Below, piece after piece: positions 29,498 through 54,577 of a stretch of DNA of 64,000 nt. This stretch comes from Pirellulaceae bacterium (GTDB lineage Bacteria; Planctomycetota; Planctomycetia; Pirellulales; Pirellulaceae). Below the pieces are notes generated by a model, which worked only from the letters and a program-made list of their open reading frames with translations, did not search any database and was not told the origin of the DNA. Within the stretch, counting starts at the first letter, position 1, and every line of letters begins with the position of its first letter. The DNA lies in contig DATKDU010000207.1 in assembly GCA_035512595.1 (NCBI GenBank), positions 4,889 through 68,888 on the forward strand. Direction: 5' to 3'. A program made the position numbers and the translations under genes.

Positions 29498-30089
29498 GAA
29501 GCGGACGTTCGTGCGGCAATCCGCCTCGCGCAGAACGATTGTCAAACCTTGCCGGCCAGTCAAACCGTGCCGCTTCACAATGTAGCGGTGAGGGCGGCGC
29601 TAGCGATCAACGTGGAGGCTGCGGGGGCCATTTTACCGGCAAGGTTTGACCACCTTTCGGCAGCGTCAAAGTCTACGCAACGGTCGCCCTAAAGCGTGGC
29701 AGGAAAATTGTTTGCGAACGTTCAAGGTCGCTGCGCAAGGGGGACGATACCGTACTTGTCAACCGGTTCAAGCAGCCCAGCCGTCGCCGGACGGAGGAGG
29801 CTGGACCGGGCCAAGTCCGGCGGTTTTTCGGGTCAGCGGAAGACCCGACCGGCCTTGGCGGAAGACACACCCCACGTGCGAGCGACACCCACCTACCTGA
29901 AGCTCGCACCGGACCTACCTGGTAACCGCAACCCCGCATGATACCTCCGCCTATCGGACGGGCGGAGGATCTGTCCACCGTGGAAGGGATCGCCACGCTC
30001 TTGTCGCGCGCGGCAAACCGTTCACGCAATCCGGCCGGACCGGGACATGCGCCAGTTCGATGGTTCCATCGTTAAGGAGACGTCGCTCG

Positions 30090-30875
30090 ATGAAATGGAA
30101 CATTCTGGTTGGATCGTTGGTACTAAGCGCTTGCGCTTGTACCCAGAGTTATGGTTTTGAGCTGCTGGACCGCATGCTCGGTGTCAGTGGCTGCGGCTGC
30201 GAAAGCAGTTGCTGCGAATCGAAAGGCTGCCGGTCGCGTTGCGTGCGCGTAAAGTGCTGCAACTCGTCCTGTGGCAATGGCTGTGCGAAAGCCGCGCCGA
30301 GCTGTGCAGCTCCGACGTGTGCCGCCCCAGCCCCCACGTGTGCGGCTCCCGCCCCCACCTGTGCCGCGAAGGCCCCGACCTGCGCCGCTGATCCTAGCTG
30401 CGAAGCGAAGGCCGGCTGCAACAACGGCTGCCGCGACCGCTGCAAGCGTGGTTGCCTGCTCGATCGGCTCTTCTCGTGCAACAAGCGCTGCCACAACGGT
30501 TGCGGCAATGGTTGTGCGAAGGCCGCCCCGAGCTGTGCCGCGAAGGCCCCGACCTGCGCCGCGGCTCCTAGCTGCGGAGCCAAGGCCGCTTGCCACAACG
30601 GCTGCCGTGACCGCTGCCATCGCGGTTGCCTGCTTGATCGGCTCTTCTCGTGCAACAAGCGCTGCAACAACGGTTGCAGCAACGGTTGTGCGAAGGCCGC
30701 TCCGACCTGTGCCGCTCCGGCCCCGGCTTGCGGCTGCGACGCTGCGGCTCCCGGCAAGGCGCACGCCGCTGGTGGGGACATTGCCCCGATGCCGCCGGCC
30801 CCGGTGGTCGATCCCTCGGCCTACCTGTCCGCTCAACGTCGGGTCGTTCCGGCCTCGGCGACCTTGGTCCGCTAA
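30090..30875 (+). CDS. secreted cysteine-rich tandem-repeat protein
   Basis: ATG 30090 (MKWNILVGSLVLSACA signal peptide). About 40 Cys in 261 aa. Two near-identical 58-aa (174-bp) repeats CxNGCRDRCxRGCLLDRLFSCNKRCxNGCxNGCAKAAP(S/T)CAA plus a degenerate first copy. Confidence 0.75.
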   Translation: MKWNILVGSLVLSACACTQSYGFELLDRMLGVSGCGCESSCCESKGCRSRCVRVKCCNSSCGNGCAKAAPSCAAPTCAAPAPTCAAPAPTCAAKAPTCAADPSCEAKAGCNNGCRDRCKRGCLLDRLFSCNKRCHNGCGNGCAKAAPSCAAKAPTCAAAPSCGAKAACHNGCRDRCHRGCLLDRLFSCNKRCNNGCSNGCAKAAPTCAAPAPACGCDAAAPGKAHAAGGDIAPMPPAPVVDPSAYLSAQRRVVPASATLVR

Positions 30876-34160: not shown

Positions 34161-34233
34161 CTTGCCGGGAAAACGCCGCACTGCCCAACGTGAGCAGGTA
34201 ATCTAACTCGTGACTTCAGCTTGAGTTCCAACC

Positions 34234-34279
34234 AGAGCGACGGACGGGGCTCGAACCCGCGACATCCAGCTTGGGAAGC
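34234..34279 (-). repeat. att repeat: partial copy (3' half, anticodon loop to discriminator) of tRNA-Gly(CCC)
   Basis: agagcgacggacggggctcgaacccgcgacatccagcttgggaagc matches 54503-54548 at 44 of 46 positions. The 5' half of the tRNA is absent here. Confidence 0.9.
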
Positions 34280-34498
34280 AATGAGCAGGATGCCGCAAGT
34301 GAGAACCTGCCCGAACTTACGACGAGCAAATCGGCAGCTTGTACCAACGCTTGTACCGGCGAGGCGAAAAACGCCGAATTGGTGGCACCCGATCCGCAAG
34401 TGACGTTGATCATCGAGCGGTGGCCGCAGCTCACGCTCGCTGCCCGCCAAGCGGTGATGCAGATCGTGCTCGCCAACGCGCCGCACGGGGACGTCTGA
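34271..34498 (+). other. orphan ORF in the integrase reading frame across the att repeat (possible detached integrase 3' end)
   Basis: Begins TTG GGA AGC inside the att copy, the same codon phase as TTG GGA AGC TAG at the integrase end (54540-54551). Encodes ...ELVAPDPQVTLIIERWPQLTLAARQAVMQIVLANAPHGDV. Confidence 0.4.
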
Positions 34499-35880: not shown

Positions 35881-36056
35881 AGGTTCGCCGCTCCTGCGTG
35901 GAAAGCCCGTGCGCCAACTCGTCACTCCGGCTCCGCGATTTCGACGCACGGGGGCCCGAGCCATACCCACGCCCCGACCCTACTGATCCCGTCGTTGGCT
36001 CGCTAGGTGAACTCCCTTGATGCGCAGTGGACTATCAACTTCCGTCGTGAGCGGGA

Positions 36057-36296
36057 CTACGAACACGTCTTCGCACGCTTCGAGTTCGTGTGCTGCCCGC
36101 GGATTGCATGGTGAAGGCCGGCAGTATTTGCGCCACTGCGCTTTGGAAAGTCGGCAGCCACTCCCAGGCAGAGCCCCTGATCCAGAACCTGCTGGGCGAC
36201 GCGACGCCAGAGTCCTGACGCCGTCGTTAGCGACAACAGCCCCGAGTTCTTGATGCCCTGCGACTTCTTCTGGTTGACCATGCCCGGTAGCCTCAT
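36057..36296 (-). CDS. possible 79-aa coupled ORF, or a frameshifted continuation of the disrupted gene upstream
   Basis: ATG 36296-36294 overlaps the TGA of the upstream frame (ATGA). MRLPGMVNQKKSQGIKNSGLLSLTTASGLWRRVAQQVLDQGL. Confidence 0.3.
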   Translation of the reverse strand: MRLPGMVNQKKSQGIKNSGLLSLTTASGLWRRVAQQVLDQGLCLGVAADFPKRSGANTAGLHHAIRGQHTNSKRAKTCS

Positions 36297-36953
36297 CGCC
36301 GGCCGCGGAAAACCTTCGGACACGTCGGCGGGGACGGGAAGAAGCTGAACATGCCACCAACCGGATCCCCGGCCGTCGCCCCTTCATAAAGCCGGAAATC
36401 CATAGGTATATCCAGCGGCGCGATGGCCGCGTTGTGGTACAGCGCCGGCACGGGAAGCGATCGATGGTTGTGGCGGTTGTAGGTCCACCCCCGCGACACC
36501 ACGAAGACGGTATCGAGGACGAAATCGCCCTGCCGGCGGGAGCCGAACAGGACCACCGACCCTGGCGCCAGCGTCAGCAGACTGGGGTGCGACGGCTGCT
36601 GACAGATGCAGTAGCGAAAACGGTCGCCGAAGACGCAAGGGTCACTATTGGTGTGCCCATTGAATCGCTTCCTGGGGCGAATCCACGGCCGAAACAGGAA
36701 TTGGGGATGACCCGCACTCGGCCGCGGGTCGAACCGGCCGACCGCTTCCGCCTCGCATTCCCATTCGCACCAAAAGTGGAGGTCGGCCCGCGTGGGCTCG
36801 TCATCAAGTCGTCGCAGGAACTTTCCACGCTGGACGACGAATGTCCGCCGGTGCTGGCCCGTGTTCCACGGCTTCCAGCCGTTGGCCTCGGGCCGGTGCT
36901 CGACGCCGGGATGGAGGAATTGGACGAAGCGGACGGATTCGGGGGGGAGTCAT
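36293..36953 (-). pseudogene. disrupted conserved ORF (frameshift at a C7 tract after codon 2)
   Basis: My translation of the frame of track ORF 36293..36556, extended upstream, reads ESVRFVQFLHPGVEHRPEANGWKPWNTGQHRRTFVV...LHFWCEWECEAE...DPCVFGDRFRYCICQQ... It has no ATG/GTG/TTG for ~130 codons. The only ATG (36953) is one frame off, separated by CCCCCCC (plus-strand G7 at 36941-36947). Confidence 0.6.
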
Positions 36954-36961
36954 CAGCACTG

Positions 36962-37747
36962 CTACGGCATTGGCGCGATTACAACCTTTACGCAGAAACC
37001 ATCGGTTGTCCTCGAAAGGTCCGCCTCCAGGCCCGCTGGATTCGCAATGCGGTTTTCGGGGTCGTACACGAAACAGATTAGGTACTTGCAGCCAGGGTGT
37101 CTTTGATACTTGGCGATATCCAAAATCAGTTCTTCCCCGATCTTCCTTGCGTCCAGTCCTTTTCGCGTCTTTTTCAATTCAACGACGATCTGTGAATCCT
37201 TGAGCAGAAAGTCCATCCGTGCGGAACCACCCGCATAGCTTGGCGTCCATTCCTCGGCACGAATGTCGTCGAAGAACAACCTCAAGAGCGAGTGCATTAG
37301 GTCCTGCACGTCGTATTCATCAGTAATGTCGAGCGTGGGACGATCGGCGTGTCGCGCACGAAGCTGTCGAACCACGGCATGAAAGCGATTGCAAATCTGC
37401 TCGACAATCGCCACGGATTCCTCAAGATCGGCCTCCGCGTGGCGAACCTCAGGCATTCCAAACTGTTCGATCTCCCAAATAAACGAGCGAAGAACTTTTT
37501 TAGACTTGTCAACTCCCGCCTTGAAAGCTTGGATCTCTGGATTAGGATCACCGAGTCGGCAGATGCCGTAAAACTGAAAATCGACCGTCATTAAGTCCTG
37601 GGAATGGTGGGAGTCTTCCCCGAAGATCTGATCGAGGACTGTGCGGCACTTTCGTCGCCAGGCATCGACATTCGTCGGCTTCCGCTTTACGGCATCGGCC
37701 TCTTCGATCAAGCCTTTGATCAGGGTAGTTGCGGCGGCTGCATCCAC
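36962..37747 (-). CDS. PD-(D/E)XK nuclease-fold protein
   Basis: 261 aa. C-terminal half YDVQDLMHSLLRLFFDDIRAEEWTPSYAGGSARMDFLLKDSQIVVELKKTRKG fits a D...(D/E)xK core (D in MDF, ELK). Helical N-terminal half. AT-richer than its surroundings by eye. Confidence 0.7.
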   Translation of the reverse strand: MDAAAATTLIKGLIEEADAVKRKPTNVDAWRRKCRTVLDQIFGEDSHHSQDLMTVDFQFYGICRLGDPNPEIQAFKAGVDKSKKVLRSFIWEIEQFGMPEVRHAEADLEESVAIVEQICNRFHAVVRQLRARHADRPTLDITDEYDVQDLMHSLLRLFFDDIRAEEWTPSYAGGSARMDFLLKDSQIVVELKKTRKGLDARKIGEELILDIAKYQRHPGCKYLICFVYDPENRIANPAGLEADLSRTTDGFCVKVVIAPMP

Positions 37748-37787
37748 GGAGGTGGTTACTCCCTTCCCATCCAGAACCCGGTCATCG

Positions 37788-39278
37788 TCATTTACCTAGC
37801 TTCCCCGCAATCGCCTGAAACTGCTCTAGCGCCGTCTCCAGGTCGTCGGCAATCTCTGCCGCCAGAACGTCGGGCTCGGGCAGATCCTCGGAGTCCTCCA
37901 GGCTCTTGTCCCTGAGCCAGAAGATGTCCAGGTTCACCTTGTCCCGCTTGATCAGCTCTTCGTAGTCGAACTGCCGCCAGCGCCCCTCCGGGTTCTTGTC
38001 CGCGTCCCACTTGGCTTTCCGCTGGTGGCGCTTGCCGGGCCGGTAGCACTCAACGAACTCGTCCAGGTCGGCTCTGCTCATCGGGTTCGTCTTCTGGGTG
38101 AAGTGCATGTTGGTCCGCAGGTCGTAGACCCACAGCTTGCTCGTCCACGGCTTCTCCTGCGCCGGCTTGGCGTCGAAGAACAGGACGTTGGCCTTCACCC
38201 CCTGGGCGTAGAAGATGCCGGTCGGCAGCCGCAACAGCGTATGCACGTCGCACTGCGTCAGAAGGTTGCGGCGGACCGTCTCGCCGGCCCCTCCCTCGAA
38301 CAGCACGTTGTCCGGCACGACGATCGCGCAGCGGCCGTTGATCTTCAGCAGCGTCTTGACGTGCTGCACGAAGTTGAGCTGCTTGTTCTTGGTCGCGGTC
38401 CAGAAATCCTGCCGCTCGTAGGCGTGCTCCTCTTTTTCCAGGTCCCCCTCCTCGTTGACGATGGCGATGCTGCTCTTCTTGCCGAACGGCGGATTGGTGA
38501 CCACGACGCTGAACCGCTCCCCCGGATCGCCGGCCAGGCTGTCCACCCCCGACTTGATCGGGCACGGGTCGGCGTCGATGCCATGCAGGTACAGGTTCAT
38601 GATGCAGAGGCGGGCCGTGTTGGGGACCAGCTCCCATCCCTTCACGAACTTCGTCCGCAGGTGCTTCTTCTGGTCCTTGTCCAGTTCCTTGCCGAAGTGG
38701 GACACGACGTAGCTGTATGCCGCCAGTAGAAAGCCGCCGGTCCCCGCCGCCGGATCGCAGACCGTGTCCCCCGGCCCCGGCTGCACGCAATCGACGATCG
38801 CCTTGATCAGCTCCCGCGGCGTGAAATACTGCCCGGCCCCTTTAGGGGACTCCTCGGCACTCTTGGCCAGCAGCCCCTCGTAGATGTCCCCCTTCACGTC
38901 GGCATCCATGCTCGACCACTTGACCGGCTCGATCAGATCCACGATCAACCGCCGCAGCGTCGCCGGGTTCTGGATGTCCATCCGCGCCTTCTTGAAGATT
39001 TCGCCGAGCATCCCCGGCTGCTTCCCCAGTTCCTCCAGGCAGTGGCGGTAGTGGACTTCCAGCTCGTCCCCCTCGAGCTTGAGGAGCGCCTCCCACGAGT
39101 ATTTTTTGGGGACGATGGGGGGCCGGTTGTACGGGGCCTTGGTCAGCTCGTCGGCCATCTTCAGGAAGAGCAGGAAGGTGATCTGCTCGGTGTAGCCCAT
39201 GTACGACAGCCCGTCGTCGCGCAGGACGTGCGCGAAGTTCCAGGCTTTGGAGACGATTTGCTGGGAGAGGTTGCTCAT
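37788..39278 (-). CDS. hsdM: type I restriction-modification N6-adenine DNA methyltransferase subunit
   Basis: 496 aa. HsdM N-terminal domain, DPAAGTGGFL (motif I) and VVTNPPFG (motif IV). Confidence 0.95.
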   Translation of the reverse strand: MSNLSQQIVSKAWNFAHVLRDDGLSYMGYTEQITFLLFLKMADELTKAPYNRPPIVPKKYSWEALLKLEGDELEVHYRHCLEELGKQPGMLGEIFKKARMDIQNPATLRRLIVDLIEPVKWSSMDADVKGDIYEGLLAKSAEESPKGAGQYFTPRELIKAIVDCVQPGPGDTVCDPAAGTGGFLLAAYSYVVSHFGKELDKDQKKHLRTKFVKGWELVPNTARLCIMNLYLHGIDADPCPIKSGVDSLAGDPGERFSVVVTNPPFGKKSSIAIVNEEGDLEKEEHAYERQDFWTATKNKQLNFVQHVKTLLKINGRCAIVVPDNVLFEGGAGETVRRNLLTQCDVHTLLRLPTGIFYAQGVKANVLFFDAKPAQEKPWTSKLWVYDLRTNMHFTQKTNPMSRADLDEFVECYRPGKRHQRKAKWDADKNPEGRWRQFDYEELIKRDKVNLDIFWLRDKSLEDSEDLPEPDVLAAEIADDLETALEQFQAIAGKLGK

Positions 39279-39305
39279 TTTGTCTTTCGATGCATGGAGT
39301 GCGGC

Positions 39306-40817
39306 TTAGGCCCCCCCGACAAGTCCGAGCCCCGGCGCGAACATTGGATGCACGGCGAACCAGCGAGTGGCGGTTAACTCAACAGGATTGCTTGGATCGT
39401 AGGGAACCGCTTCGTCCGTTCTGCTCAACTTCACCCATAGAATGCCGCATTCAAGCAAGAGGCGGGCGAAAGCGCAGGGATCCTCGGAATAACCTCTTGC
39501 CCACGCATACCGATCTGCGCCGGGCTCATTCAAATCGACCTCCAGGGCTATGATTTCAAGGATGTTTTTCAAAGTGCCTAGTGGGAACTCCTTTTGACCT
39601 CCATTCATCTTTTTCACAATCCGCTCTAGGCCGGGATACTTGTACTCGAATTCGCCCGTAATCTCCTTGAGACGCTCGATCGAAAAGTCGCGGATGGCAG
39701 TTTCCATATCATGCTGTGTTATCTGCTTGTGTCCGTTGGTGTCTGCCGTGACCGCCGCGACTGTAGCCAATCGAATGGCTTCCCGCGGACGCCCATTCGA
39801 GTGCTTCCAAATTGCCTTGAAGGCGTCTTCTGGGAAAAGACCTCCCCATATTTCCTTGCGTTGCACCTGAAGTTTGAACAGGATTCTTTCCTCGACGATG
39901 GTACGAACCGAATCGAAGTCCCACCGCACTGGAATTACGACGTCGTGGAGTTTGTCTCGGTCAACGAGCGGCAAGGAGTTGTAGATATTCTCACGTAAGG
40001 CAACGATCGCCTTTAGGCGTGGTGGTCTGCTGAAGTGGCTCAAGCTGGTAAATAGCGATGCCAAGAAGGCGTTCTGCGTGGGAGTGTCGTTCCAGTAAAG
40101 ATCGAGATCGTCGATCAAGAGGTAATAGGAGTGCTTCACGTTATCGCGAAGTTTTCGCGCCACCGAATTCACCAGCGAAAGCAGATGGAGCGGCTCACCT
40201 GATTTCGCGTTCTCTTTATCCAGCACGGCCTTTCCCGTGATTTTTGCTCCGGCGTACTCGCCTGAAAGTTCGACTTCCTTTACTAGCTGAAGAATGCGGA
40301 CTGTCAGCGATGTTTCTTCGCCCTGGCTCATTGAGATGAGCTTTCTGGCTTCCTTTTCGAATTGGCCCCGAAAGATGTTAGTGAACCATCCGCTTAGTTC
40401 TGATGCGTTCGGAAACTCTCTTCTCAGGACCTCCATTGCGAGGACATAGTCCCAAAGGGCCTTGAAGAGCCACTGGTTCTTAGCCGACTCTGCGATGATG
40501 GGTGACGTTGCTTCCACGTTCGCGAGCGCCGAGAATGCGAGGTCGTCGGGACGGATGCTGATCACCCTGCATTCGCTTCCCGCCTTTGTAAGCTGCACCA
40601 TCTTCAGGATTGCCGATTTGCCCATGCCCTTTGGGCCGACAAAGAACGTAGCCGGGTCCTCGATGTCGATCGCGCGTCGCAAGTAGCGCTGTTCCGAAAC
40701 GTAATACTGGGCGAGATGTTCATCGTTCTCAGCAACAAGCCGCCCAAAATCGAGCGTGTCGTCTTCGGCGTTGAGCTTTAGGAGATTTCGTTCGCGGTCT
40801 TTGTTCTTCTTAGTCAT
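39306..40817 (-). CDS. P-loop NTPase of unassigned family embedded in the R-M operon
   Basis: 503 aa. Walker A GPKGMGKS (res 61-68) and Walker B YYLLIDDLD (res 231-239), about 165 residues apart. Helical C-terminal region. Visibly AT-richer. Confidence 0.85.
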   Translation of the reverse strand: MTKKNKDRERNLLKLNAEDDTLDFGRLVAENDEHLAQYYVSEQRYLRRAIDIEDPATFFVGPKGMGKSAILKMVQLTKAGSECRVISIRPDDLAFSALANVEATSPIIAESAKNQWLFKALWDYVLAMEVLRREFPNASELSGWFTNIFRGQFEKEARKLISMSQGEETSLTVRILQLVKEVELSGEYAGAKITGKAVLDKENAKSGEPLHLLSLVNSVARKLRDNVKHSYYLLIDDLDLYWNDTPTQNAFLASLFTSLSHFSRPPRLKAIVALRENIYNSLPLVDRDKLHDVVIPVRWDFDSVRTIVEERILFKLQVQRKEIWGGLFPEDAFKAIWKHSNGRPREAIRLATVAAVTADTNGHKQITQHDMETAIRDFSIERLKEITGEFEYKYPGLERIVKKMNGGQKEFPLGTLKNILEIIALEVDLNEPGADRYAWARGYSEDPCAFARLLLECGILWVKLSRTDEAVPYDPSNPVELTATRWFAVHPMFAPGLGLVGGA

Positions 40818-40875
40818 CGTGACTGCTCGTCGTAGTTAAGAAACTCGTCCGCGAAGCGACAGGAACTCCCAAGGA

Positions 40876-42444
40876 TTACCCAGCCGTTCGCGCAGCGGGA
40901 TTGGTTCGATTACGACCGGCCTTCGACCGGCCAGCAGCGCTCGCCCCATTCCTCTCGTCTCCCAAACCTAACCGTATTCGCTCCAGCAGCACGCTGGCCG
41001 GTTCGTCGTGGGGGTCTTGGGGGACGAGTTTCCCCTCGAAGGCCCGCTTGAGGATGCTCTGGCGGAGACGGGCGGCGCGGTGCAGTCCGTGGTCGATGGC
41101 AGTATCGGCCGCCTCGATCTGGGAGAGCCGCTCATCGAGTTGGGCGACGATTTCTCGCTGTTCGGAGGGGGGCGGAACTGAAACCGGGAACCGACGCAGA
41201 ATGCCGAGGTTGATCGAGGCCAGATTCGTTGTCTGCTTGCCAGCTTTAGTGAACCATTCCTGTCCAAACGTATTGCCGTGGTGCGAAACGAACCGGGATT
41301 GCATTTGCTTTGAGACCAGCCGGGCGCGGAAAATGTGGTTTTGGTGAATACACTCCAAGATTTCGCCTTCCCAAACCCACCCGCGACCGAGCTTATCCCG
41401 GTCGCCGCCTTCAGTGAAAAGGACGTCGCCAACTTCAAGTCGCAAGTCAACAATGTCCTCCTCGGGGGCAAAGATGTTTTTCATCTCGGAGAGGTCGAGA
41501 AACCCTCGCTGCACATTGGCGACTCGCAAATATGGAACTTCCCGCATCCCAGGTTGGTTGGACCGCTTTTGATCTTTTGTGATGCCGCCGACTAGATTGG
41601 CCAGCGCTTCAAGGGTCGCCCAGCACCAGCCCTTGGGCAGCTCGGGCAGGTTGGTCGTATCCGGCGACGCGGGCTCGACGTACTTGGCCCGCCAGTTCGT
41701 GGGGGGCGGTTTGCCGGCGGCGGCGAACTTGGCGAGTTGATCGGCTTCCCACTTGCGGCGGCGTTCGGCCAGGATCCGCTCCAGCAGCTTCGAGGCGGGC
41801 TCCACGTCCTTGTGCTTGGCCCGCCAGGCCGCGGTCAGCTTCCCCTTGACGGCCGCATTCAGGACGGCCGCCCGGTAACGCTTCAAGTTCGCCTTGGCCC
41901 GCTCCAGTGCCGCCACGCCCGCATCCAGGTCGGAGAACAGTTCCTCGATCTTCTCGACGATCCGGCGCTGCTCGCTGAGCGGAGGTACGGGGAACTCCAC
42001 TCGTGACAGTGCCTTTCCGGTCAAGTGCTTGATGGTCGTCCCCGTGTAATGCGGCGCGAAACGGTTGGTGATCGTCCCGTAGTAGAGGTAGTACATCGCA
42101 AACGAGGGGTCATATTCCTCGGGGCGAAAACGAATCCGATGGAGCGCCTTTTGGATTTTGGCGGATGCCGCTTGACCCTTCCAAACGGCTGCCCGACCGG
42201 GTTCGCCCCCTTCGCAAATCACAAGGTCGCCCGGCTGAAGGCCGAACCGCGATTCCTCGTCGGCCTCGAATCGCATTTCTTTCATGTCGCTAAGATCGAA
42301 TGTAAACCACCGCACGTTGACGTTACGCAGGTAGGGTTGCAGTGAGCCGCGATTCTTCTGCTTGTCGAGCATCTTCCCGAGACACATTTCGGCAGCAACC
42401 AAGGTCAGGGGCAACGCTGGCCACGGAAATCCATTTGCACTCAT
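40876..42444 (-). CDS. hsdS: type I R-M specificity subunit
   Basis: 522 aa. Two target-recognition halves separated by conserved helices (PPLSEQRRIVEKIEELFSDLDAGVAALERAKANLKRYRAAVL; PPPSEQREIVAQLDERLSQIEAA). ATGA overlap with hsdR. Confidence 0.9.
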   Translation of the reverse strand: MSANGFPWPALPLTLVAAEMCLGKMLDKQKNRGSLQPYLRNVNVRWFTFDLSDMKEMRFEADEESRFGLQPGDLVICEGGEPGRAAVWKGQAASAKIQKALHRIRFRPEEYDPSFAMYYLYYGTITNRFAPHYTGTTIKHLTGKALSRVEFPVPPLSEQRRIVEKIEELFSDLDAGVAALERAKANLKRYRAAVLNAAVKGKLTAAWRAKHKDVEPASKLLERILAERRRKWEADQLAKFAAAGKPPPTNWRAKYVEPASPDTTNLPELPKGWCWATLEALANLVGGITKDQKRSNQPGMREVPYLRVANVQRGFLDLSEMKNIFAPEEDIVDLRLEVGDVLFTEGGDRDKLGRGWVWEGEILECIHQNHIFRARLVSKQMQSRFVSHHGNTFGQEWFTKAGKQTTNLASINLGILRRFPVSVPPPSEQREIVAQLDERLSQIEAADTAIDHGLHRAARLRQSILKRAFEGKLVPQDPHDEPASVLLERIRLGLGDERNGASAAGRSKAGRNRTNPAARTAG

Positions 42445-45194
42445 GCCGCCAGCCTCCCATTCAGCTCCGCCAGGAGTGCCGGCAGCGCTTCGCCGAACAG
42501 TTCAAACGCCTTCCCCAGCCCGCCGATCTGGTTGAACGGCACTTCGTCGAGATCTTCCTTCTCGATCGTCAGGCTCGTGGCGACGTGGTCCTTGATCGCA
42601 TCCAGCCAGCGCCGCTGGTCGGGGGTGAACTTGCGGCCCGCGGCCGTCTGCTCGGCCAGCCACGCCTCATACCGCTCGTGGACCGTCTGCCCCATCGGCA
42701 CCAGCGGCGTCGCCGGGTCGAGTGCGTGCCGCACCAGGGCGATCAGGTCCACGATCTTATTGCCGCCGTCCGCCTTCACCTTGGCCGGCGCCACCGCCTT
42801 GTACGCCTGCCACAGCCGCAGCGGATCGAACCGATGCGGCGGCTGGGCCAACTCCTTGGCCAGTTCTTTCACCTGCGCGTACCGCAGCCCGGCCCGATAC
42901 GGCCTGCTGTAGAGGAGCTGGAGCGCCTCGATCTCATCCTTGTGCTCCTCGATGAACTGCCGAAAGCTGGTCACCAGGGCCTGCGCCTTCTCCTTGGAAG
43001 CCGCATCGAACCCCGCCTTGAGCAGCTTGTCCCGCGTCTGCTCGTCGATCACCTGCTCCAGCGACTGTTTCGCCTTCAGCACCTTGTCCCGCAGGACCGG
43101 ATTGTGGAACGGCTTCAGCGCCTGCCGCATCCGCTCGTGCTCGATCGTATCGAGCTGCTGCTCGCTCGGTTCCGTGCCGGCGGGCAGGGTGAATTTCGTC
43201 TTCGCCTGGGCGGCGACCGTGTCCGGGTCGATGCTCGCCAGCAGATCCCGGCTGAGCGTGGCCAGGTCCTTGCCGCCAGCCGCAGCCGTAAGTTCGGCCT
43301 CCGCGTCGGGCTCGATCTCCCGCTCCAGCCGGGCCAGCCGTGACGCCAGGGTAGAAACAATGTCGGCACTGGCGGCTCCCGCCCCGACCAGATTGAGAAT
43401 CTTGTCCAGCGGCACGCTGGGCTGCCGGTCGAGCGGTTTGGTGGCCGACTTCTCGCTTTCGCAGACGCCGATAGCATCCACGATCACGAAATGATCCTTG
43501 TGCCGGGCGTCGGGGGTCACGCTTTGCAGCGCGTCGCCATCGATCACCCGGCAGCCGCGCCCCTTCATCTGCTCGAAGTACGACAGCGAGCGGATATTCC
43601 GCAGAAAGAGCAGGCACTCCAGCGGTTTGACGTCGGTCCCCGTGGCGATCATATCCACCGTCACGGCGATCCGCGGATTGAATGCCGTGCGGAACTGCGC
43701 CAGCAAGTCGTCCGGCTTGTGCGCTTTGGCCGTGATCTTCTGGCAGAAGTCGTTCCCCTTGCCGAACTCTTCCCGCAGGATGCGGACCACGTCCTCGGCA
43801 TGCAGGTCGGTCTTGGCGAAGACCAGCGTCTTGGGGACTTCGGTCCGCCTCGGAAAAATCTCAGGCAGCTTGTCCCGGAACGTGCGGACGACCAGTCGAA
43901 TCTGGTCCTCGGCGACCACGTCCCGGTCGAGCTGATTGGCCGTATAGGTCAGGTCGTCGTCCAGCTCCCGGTACTTTTTCTGCTTGGTGCGCCGGTCGCG
44001 GTGGGGGACGAAGATGCCCGGCTCCTTGGCCAGCTTCGCCCCGCTGGCGCTGATTTGCGTCTCGATCCGGTACACGTCGTAGCCGACATTGACGCCGTCG
44101 GCGACTGCTTTCTCGTGCGTGTATTCCTGCACCAGGTTCTGATTGAAAAAGCCGATCGTCTGCGCCGTCGGCGTGGCGGTCAGGCCGATCAGGAAGCCGT
44201 CAAAATACTCCAGCACCTGCCGCCACAGGTTGTAGATCGACCGATGGCATTCATCGACCACGATGAAGTCGAACGTCTCGATGGGGATGCGCGGGTTATA
44301 GGCGACCGGCAGCGGTTCCTTGACCAGCGGCGTCTCGGTCTCGAACAGTGAGCTTTCCTCGTTCTCCTCCAGGTACTCGTCTTCGCCTTGGAGCATCGAG
44401 TACAGCCGCTGGATCGTGGTGATGCAGACCTTCGACGCGGCATCGATCGTGTTCCGCTTCAGGTGCTGGACCGTGTACTCCTCGGTGAACTTGTAACCGC
44501 TGGGGCCAATAAACTGCTGAAACTCGTTCAGCGTCTGCTTTCCCAGGTTGTTGCGGTCCACCAGGAACAGAATCCGCTTCGCTTTTGCGTGCTTGATCAG
44601 CCGGTAGCAGAAGTTGACGGCGGTGAAGGTCTTGCCGCTGCCCGTGGCCATCTGGATCAGCGACCGCGGCCGATTGTCCGCCAGAGACCGCTCCAGGTTA
44701 ATGATCGCTTCCTGCTGCACGCGCCACAGTCGCCCCTCTTCAAGCGGCGGCATCCCCCTCAGCAGCGACCGAACCTGATCGTCGAGCTGCACGAGCCGAA
44801 TCAATTCCTCTGGCCGGTGGAACGTGAAGACCGGCCGGCTGCGGGCGTCCGGTTCCAGGATGCTCGTGAACTGCGTCTCCGTGCCGGTCGATTCGTAGGC
44901 GAATGGCAGCGGCAGGCGGTAATTGGGCAGGCCCCGCGGCAGTCCTTTGACGTACTTATCCGACTGCGGCTCAATCCCTTTGAGCGTGTGCCCTTCCGGC
45001 TTGGCCTCGACGACGCCGATCGCCCGCCCGTCCGCATAAAGCAGATAGTCCGCTTCGCCGCTGGTGAGGGGAAATTCCCGCACGGCGATGCCATTGCCGG
45101 CCGAAAGGTCGATCTGGCGATAGTCCTGCACCTGCCAGCCGCATTCGGTCAGCTGCCGGTCGATGTTTTGTCGGGCTCGTTCTTCGGGGGTCAT
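42441..45194 (-). CDS. hsdR: type I restriction enzyme R subunit (EcoEI-type C-terminal region)
   Basis: MATGSGKTFTAV (motif I), VVDECHRS (II), LTATP (III), QMKGRGCR (VI). Start set at MTPEERARQNIDRQLTECGW (ATG 45194) rather than track start 45503. Confidence 0.93.
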   Translation of the reverse strand: MTPEERARQNIDRQLTECGWQVQDYRQIDLSAGNGIAVREFPLTSGEADYLLYADGRAIGVVEAKPEGHTLKGIEPQSDKYVKGLPRGLPNYRLPLPFAYESTGTETQFTSILEPDARSRPVFTFHRPEELIRLVQLDDQVRSLLRGMPPLEEGRLWRVQQEAIINLERSLADNRPRSLIQMATGSGKTFTAVNFCYRLIKHAKAKRILFLVDRNNLGKQTLNEFQQFIGPSGYKFTEEYTVQHLKRNTIDAASKVCITTIQRLYSMLQGEDEYLEENEESSLFETETPLVKEPLPVAYNPRIPIETFDFIVVDECHRSIYNLWRQVLEYFDGFLIGLTATPTAQTIGFFNQNLVQEYTHEKAVADGVNVGYDVYRIETQISASGAKLAKEPGIFVPHRDRRTKQKKYRELDDDLTYTANQLDRDVVAEDQIRLVVRTFRDKLPEIFPRRTEVPKTLVFAKTDLHAEDVVRILREEFGKGNDFCQKITAKAHKPDDLLAQFRTAFNPRIAVTVDMIATGTDVKPLECLLFLRNIRSLSYFEQMKGRGCRVIDGDALQSVTPDARHKDHFVIVDAIGVCESEKSATKPLDRQPSVPLDKILNLVGAGAASADIVSTLASRLARLEREIEPDAEAELTAAAGGKDLATLSRDLLASIDPDTVAAQAKTKFTLPAGTEPSEQQLDTIEHERMRQALKPFHNPVLRDKVLKAKQSLEQVIDEQTRDKLLKAGFDAASKEKAQALVTSFRQFIEEHKDEIEALQLLYSRPYRAGLRYAQVKELAKELAQPPHRFDPLRLWQAYKAVAPAKVKADGGNKIVDLIALVRHALDPATPLVPMGQTVHERYEAWLAEQTAAGRKFTPDQRRWLDAIKDHVATSLTIEKEDLDEVPFNQIGGLGKAFELFGEALPALLAELNGRLAA

Positions 45195-45818
45195 GCGGTC
45201 GTCCGGCAACTGCCTGCCGACGAGGAGAGCCAGCGACCCCACGAAAACCGCCGCGCCCGCCCATTGCCAGCCAGAGACAGAAAGTGACAAGGCGACGCCC
45301 ATTGTGGAGTCACCCGCCGCGGGATGCAAGCACTTTTCTGCCAGGACCGGGGCCAATATCGCGGGGGGCGCAACAAAAACGGCCCTCCGGTGGGGCAGGA
45401 ACCGGAAGGCCGCGATGCGTAGCCGCAAGCGGCCAGCACTCGACACAATATTCGTCGCCCGAGTCAATTGAAGCGCGGGAATGCCGGCATTTGTTCGCGG
45501 CATTCGGCCGCAGTAAGATGGACCTCACCCACGCACGGGTGAGTGTGAATCCAAACTCGATTTGAGGACCAACCTAGCGCAATAACGAACCAGAGCACAA
45601 GCGTGTAGTGAAGTTTCTGCTTCCCAGTAAACAGCCAACCTGAGCCGCAAGGCTCTTGATCTACAGAAGCAGTGCTTGCGCCACGCTCCCGCAAGGGAGC
45701 GTCGGCCAGGTGCTGTTCTGTAGGCCCCTTGGCTGGGGTACTGGGAGCGGCCCTGCGTTCGGCGCTCCTTTTTTCGTCGGCTGATCGAATGGCGGTCAGC
45801 AGCGGGAGATTCCTGACG

Positions 45819-47795
45819 ATGCCACTCCATCTCTACTGTCCCCGCTGTGGCGAACTTCGGCCGGCGGGCGAGGGGGCGGTAGTTAATCATTTCACCTGCC
45901 TGCGATGCGGCCAATTCGTCGGCGCCATTCCGCGTTCGGTGGAACCATTACCGCCGCCGCTCTCCGAACCTCCGCCGCGCCTTAGTCCCGATGACCCCCC
46001 GGTAGATAAAGGTCGCAGTTTCGCCGCCCCGATCTGGGCCTTGGGCGTGTTGGCGGCGCTCCTGGCCACAGTCTTGATCACGGCCGTCGTCGCGGGACGC
46101 TTGCGGCGGCCGGGTAATCCGCCTACGTGGCGTGACGCACCGGCCGTGTCGAGTGCTGAGGATGGTGGGGCCGTTGCGGAGTCGTCCATACCAAACCAGC
46201 CGCCGACGCCAATCGCCGCGGTAAGGGGCATCGGGCCGTCTCTGGTAGCGGACCAATCGCAGCCCACTTCACCTGTCCAGGCAGACCCGCCAAAGGAGTT
46301 GACGCCGGCGCAGCTCTTCGAGCTGGCCCGCCCGTCGATCGTCACGATTGAAACGTTGGACGATAACGGCCGGCCGATTGCAACGGGGACGGGGTTCGTG
46401 CTGGACGACTCAAAGTTTCGGCTGCCGAGTTGGTATACAGTGTCGGTTGCTGCTGAGGGGCTGCACTTAGTGGTCACGAACTTTCACGTGATCGACTCGG
46501 CTGCGACCGCGAAGGGAACGTTTGCGACGGGGGAAACGGAACATGCCCTTTGGGTGTTGGCCGAAGATTCAAAGTCGGATCTGGCGCTGCTTGCATTTGC
46601 CTTGGAGAAGCCCGTCCAGGGGCTCCGCATCGCAACTGCACCGCGCTCACGAGTTGGTACGACGGCGTATGTCATGGGCAATCCGTTGGGCCTGGAAAGC
46701 ACGCTCAGCGATGGATTAATCAGCGGCTATCGGAATTTCGCTGATGGCAGCAACCGGATGCAGCTCACCGCGCCGATTAGCCCCGGCTCCAGTGGCGGGC
46801 CGGTTCTCGATTCCAAGGGGCGAGTCATTGGCGTCGTCAGGTCCACCGCAGTCGGCGGGCAGAACCTCAACTTTGCCTCGCCGGCCGATGTGATCCCGCC
46901 ACTGTTTGCGGGCGAACTCGACAACAAGCGTGACGTATGGCGTGGGCGGAGCATCTCCCGCGCCCGGGATGCCGCCTACCGCGACGTGTGGATGGAGGCA
47001 TGGTCACATTCCTTGGCTTTGGGACGCATCTCCCTAGATGACGTCGAGCGCGACCAGATCAAGATGCTTTGGCGAAAGAACCGCAGAGTTGGAATTACCG
47101 CACCCATCTCGCCCGCTGAGCAAATGGCAGACCTAGAGAAGCTCTGCACGTTGGTCCCCGGTCGATACGAATGGCTGCTGGCGTTTGCCAAAGCGGAGGC
47201 GGTTTTTGATCCGTTGGCGACAGTGAAGGGGAAGGGGCGCGTCACCAGCGACGACCTGAAGTCCAGTGCCAAGGAACGAGTGCCGCTGCTGGACGAGTGC
47301 GTGCGTCTCAAGCCGGACTTCGCCCCCGCCTACGCTCGATTGGTGGACGACCGTGGGACGCTGAATGAGTTGCCGGAAGCATTGACCGCCGCCGAGCGGC
47401 TGGTGAGCCTGTTCCCGATGTGTTCTGAGGCATACAGACTTCGCGGTGATTCGTTTCGCAAACTCAAGCGCCCAGAATCAGCGATCAAGGATTATGAACG
47501 TGCCGCTGAACTCGCGCCCAACGACGGCAACAACTTCAGGGGCATCGGGCACACCCACAGTGACCAGGGGCACTACCGTGAGGCGATCGAGTTCTACAAA
47601 GCAGCCAAGACCCGAGAGACCAACAATGGATCGAGATCTGTTTTGGAGGCCGACATTGCGGATTGCTATCGTAGGTTGCGGCTCTACGCCCAGGCCATTG
47701 AGCATTACTCGACTGCGAAAGCACTCGGTCTACCGCCAGAATGGGTTGACCCCCACATCGCCGAGTGCCGCCGGCTGATGGCCGGACAGGAGTGA
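45819..47795 (+). CDS. zinc-ribbon / single-TM / trypsin-like serine protease / TPR protein
   Basis: CPRCG...CLRCG ribbon. TM segment FAAPIWALGVLAALLATVLITAVVAG. NFHVID (His), DLALLAF (Asp) and SPGSSGGPVLD (Ser). C-terminal TPRs (AIKDYERAAELAPND, AIEFYKAA). Start at 45819 (GGGAG RBS) or 45789. Confidence 0.8.
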   Translation: MPLHLYCPRCGELRPAGEGAVVNHFTCLRCGQFVGAIPRSVEPLPPPLSEPPPRLSPDDPPVDKGRSFAAPIWALGVLAALLATVLITAVVAGRLRRPGNPPTWRDAPAVSSAEDGGAVAESSIPNQPPTPIAAVRGIGPSLVADQSQPTSPVQADPPKELTPAQLFELARPSIVTIETLDDNGRPIATGTGFVLDDSKFRLPSWYTVSVAAEGLHLVVTNFHVIDSAATAKGTFATGETEHALWVLAEDSKSDLALLAFALEKPVQGLRIATAPRSRVGTTAYVMGNPLGLESTLSDGLISGYRNFADGSNRMQLTAPISPGSSGGPVLDSKGRVIGVVRSTAVGGQNLNFASPADVIPPLFAGELDNKRDVWRGRSISRARDAAYRDVWMEAWSHSLALGRISLDDVERDQIKMLWRKNRRVGITAPISPAEQMADLEKLCTLVPGRYEWLLAFAKAEAVFDPLATVKGKGRVTSDDLKSSAKERVPLLDECVRLKPDFAPAYARLVDDRGTLNELPEALTAAERLVSLFPMCSEAYRLRGDSFRKLKRPESAIKDYERAAELAPNDGNNFRGIGHTHSDQGHYREAIEFYKAAKTRETNNGSRSVLEADIADCYRRLRLYAQAIEHYSTAKALGLPPEWVDPHIAECRRLMAGQE

Positions 47796-52729: not shown

Positions 52730-52763
52730 CGTTCTCCGTTACTTGACGAAGGTCAGAATCAAC

Positions 52764-54551
52764 ATGGCTAGTGTATACCGCGAAACGTTCACTAAACCGC
52801 TGCCGGCTGGCGCCGAGACCATTGTCCGCAAGGGGGAGCGATTGGCTCGGTGGAAGGACGCCAAGGGGAAGGTGAGGACCTCGCCCGTTACGACCGGCAA
52901 GGACGGTACCGAGCGGATTGTGGTCATGGCGGCGACGTACACGGCGAAGTACCGCGACGCCAACCACAATTTGTGCAAGGTCTCGACTGGTTGCCGTGAC
53001 GAAACGAATGCGCGCCAGGTGCTGGCCGAGCTGCTCAAACGTGTCGAGCGGGTCAAGGCATTGATGCTGACGCCGGCGGAAGACGCCATGATTGATCACC
53101 GGAAGCGACCGTTGGCGGAGCACATTTCGGCCTACCTGACCTACTTGGAGTCGTGCAACGCCTCGCCAGTCCATCGGGAGAACGTCGAGCGCTGCCTGAC
53201 GGTCCTGGCTGCCGACTGCAAGTTCGAGAATCTGTCGGACTTCCGACGGGAGTCTCTGGAAATCTGGCTCGTCCAGCAATCGAAGGTGCGGAAGAGCCCC
53301 GAAGGGAAGGAGATTTGGACCAAGAGCGCTCGGACGCGCAATTCTTACCGGGCAGCCATCGTCGCCTTCTGCAACTGGTGCGTGGCCACCGAACGGTTGC
53401 TGGCCAACCCGTTCACACGGGTAGCCAAGGCTGACGAAAAGTCCGATCCACGGCGGCACCGGCGGGCGCTGACCGAGGAGGAGCTCGGGCGGCTGCTTGT
53501 AGTGGCGAGGATGAGGCCGCTGGCTGAGTGCGGCCGCGACACGGTCAAGCGGCAGGAGCCCGACGCCGACGAAGGGAAGCGGGGCGGCTGGACCTATGCC
53601 CCGCTCAATTACAAAGACCTGGAGTCGGCAACGGCCAAGGCGCGGGAGCGGCTCGCCAAGCACCCGCTCAAGATCGCGGAGCTGGAGGCGGTTGGCCAGG
53701 AGCGGGCCATGATCTACAAGACGCTGGTGCTGACCGGCCTGCGGAAGGGAGAGCTGGCGTCGCTGACTGTGGGGCAATTGCACCTTGACGGCCCGCGACC
53801 TTACGCCGAACTTGATGCCGCCGACGAGAAGAACCGCCAGGGCTCACAGATTCCGCTACGGCGCGATTTGGCGGACGAACTTGCTTTGTGGGTTGAGGAG
53901 AAGCGAAATCGCCTCCAAAGTAGTCCAGGAGCGTCTGAGGGGCATATTTGTCTGCCGATGACTGCAGCGACCATCCTGCCAGCCGATACTCCCCTGTTCG
54001 ACGTGCCGGACGGGCTAATCCGGATTCTCGATCGCGACCTGAAGGCCGCCGGGATTCCCAAAAAGGACCAGCGGGGAAAGACGGTCGATGTTCACGCCCT
54101 GCGGCACAGCTTCGGCACGCTGCTGTCGAAGGGGGGCGTGGCGCCGCGGACCGCACAGGCGGCGATGCGGCACTCGTCGATCGACCTGACCATGAACACG
54201 TACACCGATCCGAAGCTCTTGGACGTGCATGGTGCCCTCGACGCGCTCCCGCAACTCCCTCTTTCGGCGGATCCTTCTGCACGCGCAATCGATGCAAAGG
54301 CAACTGGCACCGACGACTTCGGTCCCTCGCCGCTTGTACCAACGCTTGTACCAGCGGCTGACAATCGCGGTGATTTGCTGCCATTTGCTGCCCCATCGGC
54401 AAGCGGAGCTATGAGCAGCGAACGTCGCCAGAGCCGCGACGTAAGTGGTTGCGGTGACAAAAGAAAAAACCCGCTGCCACATTCAGACAGCGGGTGTCAT
54501 CGAGAGCGACGGACGGGATTCGAACCCGCGACATCCAGCTTGGGAAGCTAG
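52764..54551 (+). CDS. tyrosine site-specific integrase
   Basis: VHALRHSFGTLL and AMRHSSIDLTMNTYTD (H-x-x-R ... Y catalytic set). A long Ala/Pro/Ser-rich tail reads antisense through the tRNA (RTGFEPATSSLGS) and stops immediately after the att repeat. Confidence 0.9.
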   Translation: MASVYRETFTKPLPAGAETIVRKGERLARWKDAKGKVRTSPVTTGKDGTERIVVMAATYTAKYRDANHNLCKVSTGCRDETNARQVLAELLKRVERVKALMLTPAEDAMIDHRKRPLAEHISAYLTYLESCNASPVHRENVERCLTVLAADCKFENLSDFRRESLEIWLVQQSKVRKSPEGKEIWTKSARTRNSYRAAIVAFCNWCVATERLLANPFTRVAKADEKSDPRRHRRALTEEELGRLLVVARMRPLAECGRDTVKRQEPDADEGKRGGWTYAPLNYKDLESATAKARERLAKHPLKIAELEAVGQERAMIYKTLVLTGLRKGELASLTVGQLHLDGPRPYAELDAADEKNRQGSQIPLRRDLADELALWVEEKRNRLQSSPGASEGHICLPMTAATILPADTPLFDVPDGLIRILDRDLKAAGIPKKDQRGKTVDVHALRHSFGTLLSKGGVAPRTAQAAMRHSSIDLTMNTYTDPKLLDVHGALDALPQLPLSADPSARAIDAKATGTDDFGPSPLVPTLVPAADNRGDLLPFAAPSASGAMSSERRQSRDVSGCGDKRKNPLPHSDSGCHRERRTGFEPATSSLGS

Positions 54552-54577
54552 TGCTCTACCAACTGAGCTACCGTCGC
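54505..54577 (-). tRNA. tRNA-Gly (anticodon CCC)
   Basis: Hand-folded GCGACGG-TA-GCTC-AGTTGGTA-GAGC-A-CTAGC-TTCCCAA-GCTGG-ATGTC-GCGGG-TTCGAAT-CCCGT-CCGTCGC-T. Perfect acceptor stem, discriminator U, CCA not encoded. Confidence 0.9.

What the first reader, a model, noticed from the sequence alone, without database searches (positions are those of the whole stretch)
35980..45194. Type I R-M operon interleaved with three non-R-M genes: candidate composite defence system
On the minus strand the ORFs are packed with gaps of -4 to 58 bp. The order is hsdR, hsdS (ATGA overlap), a 503-aa P-loop NTPase, hsdM, a 261-aa PD-(D/E)XK-fold protein, then 8 bp later a conserved-looking but disrupted ORF. Canonical type I loci contain only hsdR/M/S. 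Here an NTPase and a nuclease-fold protein are apparently co-transcribed but split around the methylase. This recalls the generic ATPase-plus-nuclease logic of Septu/Gabija/PARIS-type systems. I do not recognise this trio or this order (R-S-X-M-Y-Z) as a named system. It is cargo of a tRNA-integrated island, the classic location of defence hotspots.
Basis: partly seen in the sequence, partly recalled or inferred. Interest (0 to 1): 0.8.

Follow-up and report, generated by a model that had tools for sequence, protein, structure and literature searches.

The report
Restriction operon carrying hitch-hiking defence genes
This is an apparently intact type I restriction-modification operon on a 20-kb tRNA-integrated island, with two unrelated stand-alone candidate defence genes and one dead gene inserted into it; this "embedding" pattern is already described, so it is not a new composite immune system.

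Summary
On the minus strand lie hsdR, hsdS (ATGA overlap), a 503-aa P-loop ATPase (X), hsdM, a 261-aa nuclease protein (Y) and a disrupted ORF (Z). Gaps are -4 to 58 bp. All sit inside a 20.3-kb island bounded by a 51-nt repeat of the tRNA-Gly 3' half.

The "composite system" reading is not supported.
- X belongs to NCBIfam NF047389 (Sll1717-family ATPase) and is a distant relative of the single-gene anti-phage protein DS-41. In 70 other genomes it never neighbours hsd genes, Y or Z.
- Y (helical N-domain plus REase_DpnII-MboI nuclease) has more than 5000 homologues. They occur alone on plasmids, in a prophage, and at the edge of BREX and type I loci.
- Z is a pseudogene with two frameshifts, also seen in a separately assembled contig. 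In 83 other loci it never neighbours X, Y, hsdM or hsdS.

X and Y have GC3 of about 0.62, against 0.86-0.91 for hsdR and hsdM. In relatives of this hsd family the S-M junction holds other cargo: GIY-YIG/PDC-S14, DUF262, a HIRAN protein, Septu PtuA, or nothing.

Best reading: a working R-M operon acting as a carrier for autonomous embedded defence cassettes, as in the published "guilt-by-embedding" pattern. This is a new member of a known kind and of modest interest.

The parts
42441..45194 (-). hsdR, type I restriction subunit of the EcoAI/EcoEI-like family. The ORF stays open upstream to 45503; the probable start is M104 at 45194.
   Evidence: Pfam ResIII and EcoEI_R_C; NCBIfam NF008521 and NF046051. 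Motifs GSGKT288, DECH417 and D..EAK. Plasmid homologues 45-46% identical align from residue ~101-122. GC3 0.857.
40876..42444 (-). hsdS specificity subunit, 522 aa with two target-recognition domains. It overlaps the hsdR stop by 4 bp (ATGA).
   Evidence: Pfam Methylase_S in 2 stretches; PADLOC Specificity_I E=3e-121; overlap measured.
39306..40817 (-). X: 503-aa Sll1717-family P-loop ATPase (ORC/Cdc6-like AAA with a winged-helix-like C-terminal region), embedded at the hsdS-hsdM junction.
   Evidence: NCBIfam NF047389, 216 bits against a cut-off of 75. Weak hit to DS41_1 (51 bits, cut-off 370). TIGR02928 hit over residues 335-431. Walker A GPKGMGKS 61-68 and DDLD 236-239 are invariant in the family. 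GC3 0.635 against 0.86-0.91 for hsdR and hsdM.
37788..39278 (-). hsdM, the type I methyltransferase subunit.
   Evidence: Pfam N6_Mtase E=1e-66 and HsdM_N; PADLOC MTase_I E=8e-186. Motifs DPAAGTG175 and NPPF262. GC3 0.911.
36962..37747 (-). Y: 261-aa protein with an N-terminal helical domain (~1-110) and a C-terminal REase_DpnII-MboI PD-(D/E)XK nuclease domain, appended after hsdM.
   Evidence: PF18742 E=5e-58 over residues 114-259. PADLOC Aga_Helical-REase E=1e-32. The N-terminus hits PDC-S35, E=2.5e-6. D179, E190 and K192 are invariant. AF2 model pLDDT 87; the nuclease domain only weakly resembles Can2 and MUS81 nucleases. GC3 0.611.
36057..36953 (-). Z pseudogene, a relative of an uncharacterised ~281-290-aa family. 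The ATG at 36953 is out of frame because of a C7 tract at 36947-36941. A second frameshift lies near 36335-36323. Homology ends at about 36135.
   Evidence: Homology search found 179 homologues, none with a Pfam domain. tblastn of intact homologues splits into two frames. Both frameshifts are present in a separately assembled contig.
34229..34279 (.). attL-like direct repeat of the tRNA-Gly 3' half; the far border of the island.
   Evidence: 51 nt, 92% identical to 54498-54548. No chance matches in 100 shuffles.
54504..54577 (-). tRNA-Gly(CCC), the integration target. The island's integrase ORF (52743-54551, + strand) abuts it.
   Evidence: ARAGORN; Phage_integrase domain.

Best explanation
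This is an apparently functional type I R-M operon of an EcoAI/EcoEI-like family whose native order is R-S-M. It serves as a carrier for unrelated, autonomously acting single-gene cassettes.

X was inserted at the S-M junction, and Y was added after hsdM. Both were probably acquired separately from the hsd genes. They are probably transcribed with the operon and they move with the island. Each most likely acts alone.
- X is an ATP-dependent sensor or DNA-binding protein of the Sll1717 family, a relative of DS-41.
- Y is a PD-(D/E)XK nuclease effector gated by its helical N-domain.
- Z is a decayed remnant of a third cassette and does nothing.

What is shown: gene identities, intact catalytic motifs, island borders, the compositional difference, lack of co-occurrence elsewhere, and variable cargo in the same slot. 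What is inferred: co-transcription, defence activity of X and Y, and their independence from the R-M enzyme.
For: (1) X relatives stand alone. In 70 genome loci none has hsd, Y or Z within 10 kb. The tblastn screen does detect a different-family HsdM at 28% identity. Pfam on 81 neighbour ORFs from 18 planctomycete loci shows mainly housekeeping genes and no recurring partner. Distant relatives are solitary on IncF plasmids.
(2) DS-41, to whose NCBIfam model (NF053860) X and its relatives give a weak, sub-threshold match, is listed in the DefensePredictor supplement as a single gene of ~502 aa (PMC13092281).
(3) The X sub-clade with 62-64% identity lies inside class-1 DISARM (DrmMI-X-DrmA/B/C). 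The same cassette therefore embeds in a different host system.
(4) Y homologues (more than 5000) are solitary on IncX4 and IncF plasmids, in a filamentous prophage, after a BREX-like cluster, and after a type I operon of another family.
(5) In plasmid relatives of this hsd family (HsdM 46-55% and HsdR 45-46% identical) the S-M junction holds varied cargo: GIY-YIG/PDC-S14, DUF262, a hypothetical plus a HIRAN protein, two hypotheticals, Septu PtuA, or nothing.
(6) GC3 is 0.635 for X and 0.611 for Y, against 0.857 for hsdR and 0.911 for hsdM.
(7) Z has two frameshifts.
(8) Published work shows that type I R-M loci often carry embedded, same-orientation defence genes that work on their own (doi 10.1101/2024.01.29.577857; PMC11411939).
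Against: - No experiment bears on X, Y or this operon.
- X has no recognisable effector domain, so how it would defend on its own is unclear.
- Many planctomycete X homologues sit among housekeeping genes, which fits a mobile cassette but also a non-defence role.
- Context sampling for Y covered about 8 distinct contexts out of more than 5000 homologues. Two of these abut methylation-based systems, so a loose functional preference for such neighbours cannot be excluded.
- The three DISARM-embedded X genes are 84-86% identical to each other and count as one event.
Confidence: 0.7

Rival explanations
1. Guard model, as for PrrC. X (and possibly Y) is functionally coupled to the methylation-based host system. 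It is held inactive by the HsdM/S complex, or it monitors that complex. It fires when a phage anti-restriction protein disables the complex.
For: - X sits directly between hsdS and hsdM here.
- Its nearest characterised sub-clade sits directly after the DISARM methylase DrmMI.
- The PrrC/EcoprrI precedent is summarised in Payne et al..
Against: - Most X relatives have no R-M or DISARM neighbour within 10 kb.
- X is not an ABC ATPase or anticodon nuclease, and its PADLOC hits are marginal.
- Only two independent embedding events were seen.
Confidence: 0.12
2. X (ATPase), Y (nuclease) and perhaps Z form a new composite ATPase-plus-nuclease system, Septu/Gabija-like in logic, integrated with type I R-M.
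For: They lie on one strand with tight spacing. The pairing of an ATPase with a nuclease is a recurrent defence design.
Against: - X, Y and Z never co-occur in 70 X loci, about 8 distinct Y contexts and 83 Z loci.
- X and Y are separated by hsdM.
- Z is a pseudogene.
- Other members of this hsd family carry unrelated cargo in the same slot.
- PADLOC matches of X to GajA and AriA are marginal, with E from 4e-4 to 8e-3.
Confidence: 0.05
3. X and/or Y are not defence genes. They could be mobile-element maintenance, addiction, regulatory or DNA-metabolism genes that landed in a permissive locus (the "genomic sink" idea).
For: - X is frequently found among housekeeping genes in Planctomycetota.
- Y is common on conjugative plasmids near replication, partition and toxin-antitoxin genes.
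- Neither exceeds a curated defence-model threshold.
Against: - Both also occur in clear defence islands: DISARM, BREX, and type I with SLFN, Mrr and McrBC neighbours.
- X is a distant relative of the validated DS-41.
- Payne et al. report that most genes embedded in such systems are not mobile elements or housekeeping genes and likely include new defences.
Confidence: 0.13

Closest known systems
Type I R-M operons with embedded defence genes ("guilt-by-embedding", Payne et al. 2024, doi 10.1101/2024.01.29.577857)
   Same: Unrelated genes are nested in the same orientation inside hsd operons. The cargo varies between related operons. The cargo includes known systems and untested candidates (PDCs). 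Relatives of this hsd family carry PDC-S14, DUF262 and Septu PtuA at the same S-M junction.
   Different: X gets only marginal PADLOC v2.0.0 hits. Y matches PADLOC models only domain by domain: the N-terminus to PDC-S35 and the nuclease domain to Aga_Helical-REase. This particular cargo combination is therefore not catalogued.
TgvAB embedded in the Vibrio cholerae VPI-2 type I R-M (PMC11411939)
   Same: A type I operon on a genomic island is interrupted by genes that protect when expressed without the R-M genes, and the R-M remains active.
   Different: TgvAB is a two-protein GmrSD-like type IV restriction system and was tested experimentally. X and Y are unrelated to it and are untested.
PrrC anticodon nuclease in the EcoprrI hsd locus
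   Same: An NTPase-containing gene sits between hsd genes.
   Different: PrrC is an ABC-type ATPase fused to an anticodon nuclease, is regulated by the R-M complex, and is almost always embedded. X is an ORC/Cdc6-like Sll1717-family ATPase without a nuclease and is mostly found away from R-M.
DS-41 ("AAA2"), a single-gene anti-phage protein from DefensePredictor (PMC13092281; NCBIfam NF053860)
   Same: Similar size (~500 aa) and a single gene. The NF053860 profile aligns over residues 24-394 of X (E=1e-13).
   Different: X scores 51 bits against an equivalog cut-off of 370, so it is not an equivalog. X belongs to the separate NF047389 Sll1717 family.
PADLOC PDC-S35 and Argonaute-associated Helical-REase proteins
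   Same: Y shares an N-terminal helical region with PDC-S35 (E=2.5e-6). It shares a DpnII/MboI-type REase domain with Aga_Helical-REase (E=1e-32).
   Different: Neither model covers the whole of Y. There is no Argonaute gene here. PDC-S35 is itself untested.
Septu / Gabija / PARIS (ATPase plus nuclease systems)
   Same: An ATPase gene and a nuclease gene lie in one locus.
   Different: Those ATPases are ABC/OLD-type and are always adjacent to their nuclease partner. X is not of that type (GajA E=4e-4, AriA E=8e-3). X and Y do not co-occur elsewhere.

Membership tests
Type I restriction-modification system | HsdR with helicase motifs and a PD-(D/E)XK nuclease motif | tested here: met
   ResIII, EcoEI_R_C; GSGKT288, DECH417, D..EAK
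Type I restriction-modification system | HsdM N6-adenine methyltransferase with motifs I and IV | tested here: met
   N6_Mtase E=1e-66; DPAAGTG175, NPPF262
Type I restriction-modification system | HsdS with two target-recognition domains | tested here: met
   Two Methylase_S stretches; PADLOC Specificity_I E=3e-121
Type I restriction-modification system | Restriction and methylation activity | not testable with these tools
   Needs methylome and transformation assays
Defence genes embedded in a host defence operon (Payne et al. 2024) | Foreign gene(s) nested between genes of one system, in the same orientation | tested here: met
   X lies between hsdS and hsdM on the same strand, with gaps of 58 and 27 bp
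Defence genes embedded in a host defence operon (Payne et al. 2024) | The embedded family also occurs non-embedded, and the slot carries different cargo in related operons | tested here: met
   X found alone; other cargo at the S-M junction
Defence genes embedded in a host defence operon (Payne et al. 2024) | The embedded gene has anti-phage activity | not testable with these tools
NCBIfam NF047389, P-loop ATPase of the Sll1717 family (X) | Score above the curated cut-off over the full profile | tested here: met
   216 bits against 75; profile positions 1-454 of 454. Relatives score 209-236 bits.
DS-41 anti-phage protein (NF053860 equivalog) (X) | Score above the equivalog cut-off of 370 bits | tested here: not met
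   51 bits. A distant relative only.
Septu / Gabija / PARIS ATPase-nuclease systems (X+Y) | ABC/OLD-type ATPase matching PtuA, GajA or AriA models | tested here: not met
   GajA E=4e-4 at 17 bits; AriA E=8e-3
Septu / Gabija / PARIS ATPase-nuclease systems (X+Y) | Conserved adjacency of the ATPase and nuclease genes across genomes | tested here: not met
   0 of 70 X loci contain Y. No Y context contains X.
PrrC-type R-M guard (X) | ABC ATPase fused to an anticodon nuclease, almost exclusively embedded in type I R-M | tested here: not met
   No PADLOC PrrC hit. X is mostly found outside R-M loci.
REase_DpnII-MboI (PF18742) nuclease-domain proteins (Y) | Domain match above the gathering score with the D...ExK catalytic residues | tested here: met
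   195 bits against 27. D179, E190 and K192 are invariant.
Type II DpnII/MboI restriction enzyme (Y) | A cognate GATC methyltransferase partner and a full-length type II enzyme architecture | tested here: not met
   Only the C-terminal 150 aa match. None of the homologue contexts examined has an adjacent dedicated methyltransferase. The neighbouring hsdM is a type I subunit.

The most novel reading that the evidence does not exclude
The X clade of Sll1717-family ATPases may be a dedicated guard or accessory of methyltransferase-based immunity. It is found directly after hsdS and before hsdM here, and directly after DrmMI in DISARM. It might sense inhibition or loss of the host methylation/restriction complex, or load onto DNA that the complex has marked. 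Y might then serve as a co-transcribed nuclease effector. This would be a PrrC-like back-up layer built from an ORC/Cdc6-type ATPase.
Probability: 0.1. Interest if true: 0.6.

Novelty: new member of a known kind. Interest (0 to 1): 0.3.

Why it matters
The locus adds one well-documented case to the rule that multi-gene restriction systems act as carriers for other defence genes. It also shows that the hsdS-hsdM junction of this R-S-M type I family is a recurrent cargo slot.

It nominates two untested candidates for anti-phage assays. One is a planctomycete clade of Sll1717-family ATPases, distantly related to DS-41. The other is a very large family (more than 5000 members) of helical-domain plus DpnII/MboI-type nucleases that is also common on enterobacterial plasmids.

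It does not reveal a new type of immune system.

Tried and rejected
- Composite X-Y-Z system: rejected on co-occurrence.
- Y as a stand-in for Z's usual partner W: rejected. The profile-profile comparison gave 0.2% probability, and W is absent from the window.
- Z frameshifts as an assembler artefact: unlikely, because a separately assembled contig is identical. I did not establish whether it used different reads, and errors at the read level are not excluded.
- Function of Z from structure: the AF2 model is excellent (pLDDT 95). Foldseek found nothing significant in the PDB or BFVD. Only weak PUA-like (EVE/ASCH) top hits appeared, with E of 0.2 or worse.
- Function of W: a PDB profile search found nothing. 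Pfam gave only a faint UDG hit, E=0.13, in 1 of 5 proteins.
- Promoter and terminator scans gave no signal above chance, so operon structure remains inferred.
- Literature searches for Sll1717, REase_DpnII-MboI and PDC-S35 found nothing useful.
- The Roseomonas ATPase in the same slot is Septu PtuA, not an X homologue.
Full report
**Observation**

The minus strand between 36.0 and 45.5 kb carries six genes:
- hsdR, ORF 42441-45503, probable start at 45194
- hsdS, 40876-42444, which overlaps the hsdR stop by ATGA
- X, a 503-aa ATPase, 39306-40817
- hsdM, 37788-39278
- Y, a 261-aa protein, 36962-37747
- Z, a disrupted ORF

Gaps are -4, 58, 27 and 40 bp, and 8 bp from the Y stop to an ATG. The R-M genes look intact. 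HsdR has GSGKT, DECH and D..EAK. HsdM has DPAAGTG and NPPF. HsdS has two target-recognition domains.

The locus lies in a 20.3-kb island. A 51-nt repeat at 34229-34279 is 92% identical to the 3' half of tRNA-Gly(CCC) at 54498-54548. The island encodes an integrase, a PrimPol and a DUF932 protein. An exact protein match to Y names the source as a Pirellulaceae MAG. Co-transcription is inferred from spacing only, because promoter and terminator scans were at chance level.

**X**

X matches NCBIfam NF047389, the Sll1717-family P-loop ATPase, at 216 bits against a cut-off of 75. It matches the DS-41 anti-phage equivalog NF053860 only weakly, at 51 bits against 370. An orc1/cdc6-like match (TIGR02928, 24 bits, far below its 181-bit cut-off) covers residues 335-431. 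Walker A and B residues are invariant in the family. In the DefensePredictor study DS-41 ("AAA2") is listed as a single gene of about 502 aa and marked as validated (PMC13092281).

A genome scan returned 71 loci, 70 of which hold a tblastn-detectable X relative. None has a homologue of this HsdR, HsdS, HsdM, Y or Z within 10 kb. The same screen detects a different-family HsdM at 28% identity elsewhere. Pfam on 81 neighbouring ORFs from 18 planctomycete loci shows mostly housekeeping genes and no recurrent partner.

A sub-clade 62-64% identical to X lies inside class-1 DISARM, between DrmMI and DrmA/B/C, in three arrangements. Its members are 84-86% identical to each other, so this counts as one embedding event. 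Distant relatives (21% identity, same NCBIfam family) are solitary on IncF plasmids.

**Y**

Y has a helical N-terminal domain and a C-terminal PF18742 REase_DpnII-MboI domain (E=5e-58) with invariant D179, E190 and K192. In PADLOC the N-terminus hits PDC-S35 and the nuclease domain hits Aga_Helical-REase. The fold search only weakly recovered PD-(D/E)XK nucleases such as Can2 and MUS81.

The family has more than 5000 members of about 260 aa. The sampled contexts were:
- an unannotated mobile-element-like region
- the position after a type I operon of a different family, within a defence island
- the end of a BREX-like cluster
- IncX4 and IncF plasmids and a filamentous prophage, none with hsd genes

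None of these contexts contains X or Z.

**Z**

Z belongs to an uncharacterised family of about 281-290 aa with no Pfam domain. The window copy has two frameshifts. One is at a C7 tract at 36947-36941 and the other near 36335-36323. Both appear in a separately assembled contig from run SRR8556377, so Z is most likely a pseudogene.

In 83 other Z loci there is no X, Y, HsdM or HsdS. About half of them (26 of 53 with enough upstream sequence) have a conserved ~250-aa partner, W, immediately upstream. W is absent from the window and is unrelated to Y. The closest intact Z homologue follows a type III mod-res pair.

**The hsd family**

Plasmid relatives with HsdM 46-55% and HsdR 45-46% identical share the R-S-M order and show variable cargo at the S-M junction:

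| Host | Arrangement |
|---|---|
| Streptomyces | R-S-[GIY-YIG / PDC-S14]-M |
| Gemmobacter | R-S-[DUF262]-M |
| Rhodococcus | R-S-[hypothetical + HIRAN]-M |
| Pusillibacter | R-[2 hypotheticals]-S-[2 hypotheticals]-M |
| Roseomonas | S-[Septu PtuA]-M |
| Polymorphobacter | R-S-M, no cargo |
| Vibrio | S-M, no cargo |

GC3 separates the residents from the cargo. It is 0.857 for hsdR and 0.911 for hsdM, against 0.635 for X and 0.611 for Y.

**Interpretation**

The simplest account is a working type I operon whose S-M junction and 3' end have accepted independent cassettes. This matches the published "embedding" phenomenon. Type I, BREX, DISARM and Hma loci frequently contain nested genes, 96.7% of them in the host orientation. 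Several tested examples defend when expressed without their host system, and PrrC is a rare example of functional coupling (doi 10.1101/2024.01.29.577857; TgvAB, PMC11411939).

A PrrC-like guard role for X cannot be excluded. It is disfavoured because most X relatives lack any R-M neighbour.

**Verdict**

X and Y are reasonable single-gene candidates for experimental testing.

Noticed in passing
L087 7252-8879; L096-L167 (e.g. L108 997-2632, L103 9247-10858): Z-family genes are paired in about half of loci with a conserved ~250-aa upstream partner, W. The genes overlap or lie within 20 bp. W has invariant motifs (PSIPILFFGD, VGLNPS..EF, HTDLCSPLATDPTW). Neither protein has a Pfam family. W gives only a faint UDG hit (E=0.13). 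Z folds with pLDDT 95 and has no significant structural neighbour; its weak top hits are PUA-like EVE/ASCH domains. This may be an undescribed two-gene module acting on DNA bases.
   Followed up: partly
window 36941-36947 and ~36323-36335: Both frameshifts that disrupt Z fall in C-rich runs (C7, and CCCGTCCCC). They are identical in a separately assembled contig. Whether the C7 tract varies in length in the reads (phase variation) could not be checked.
   Followed up: partly
P0242 (214 aa, 73% identical to Z): The second-closest Z homologue, from another genome, also ends in an aberrant Arg-rich tail, as if frameshifted. Z may be decaying in more than one lineage.
   Followed up: no
window 34334-34361 and 54329-54356: A second 28-nt direct repeat (93% identical) lies just inside each end of the island. 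The copies sit 55 nt and 142 nt from the att repeats. They may be recombinase arm sites.
   Followed up: no
window 45672-47795 (+): A 707-aa trypsin-like serine protease with C-terminal TPR repeats is divergently oriented from hsdR inside the island. Its protease domain resembles that of PADLOC RT-Protease_XI (E=1e-12). It may be another defence or cargo gene.
   Followed up: partly
contig of P0005; L168: Class-1 DISARM loci in related metagenomes carry several nested cassettes between DrmMI and DrmA. These are CTD10/MC6/DUF2326 genes, a 1265-aa reverse-transcriptase protein, the X homologue, and PDC-S02 (DUF1016). This is an extreme case of embedding.
   Followed up: partly
L084 5905-6702 and many IncX4/IncF plasmids: Y-family nuclease genes on enterobacterial plasmids are annotated as "malate dehydrogenase" in RefSeq. 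This looks like a propagated mis-annotation.
   Followed up: no
window 30339-30686: A 174-nt tandem duplication (88% identical) lies outside the island, within an ORF region around 30060-30875.
   Followed up: no
window 52743-54551 (+) and 54504-54577 (-): The mechanical integrase ORF runs 48 nt into the tRNA-Gly gene on the opposite strand. The integrase 3' end and the att core therefore overlap.
   Followed up: no
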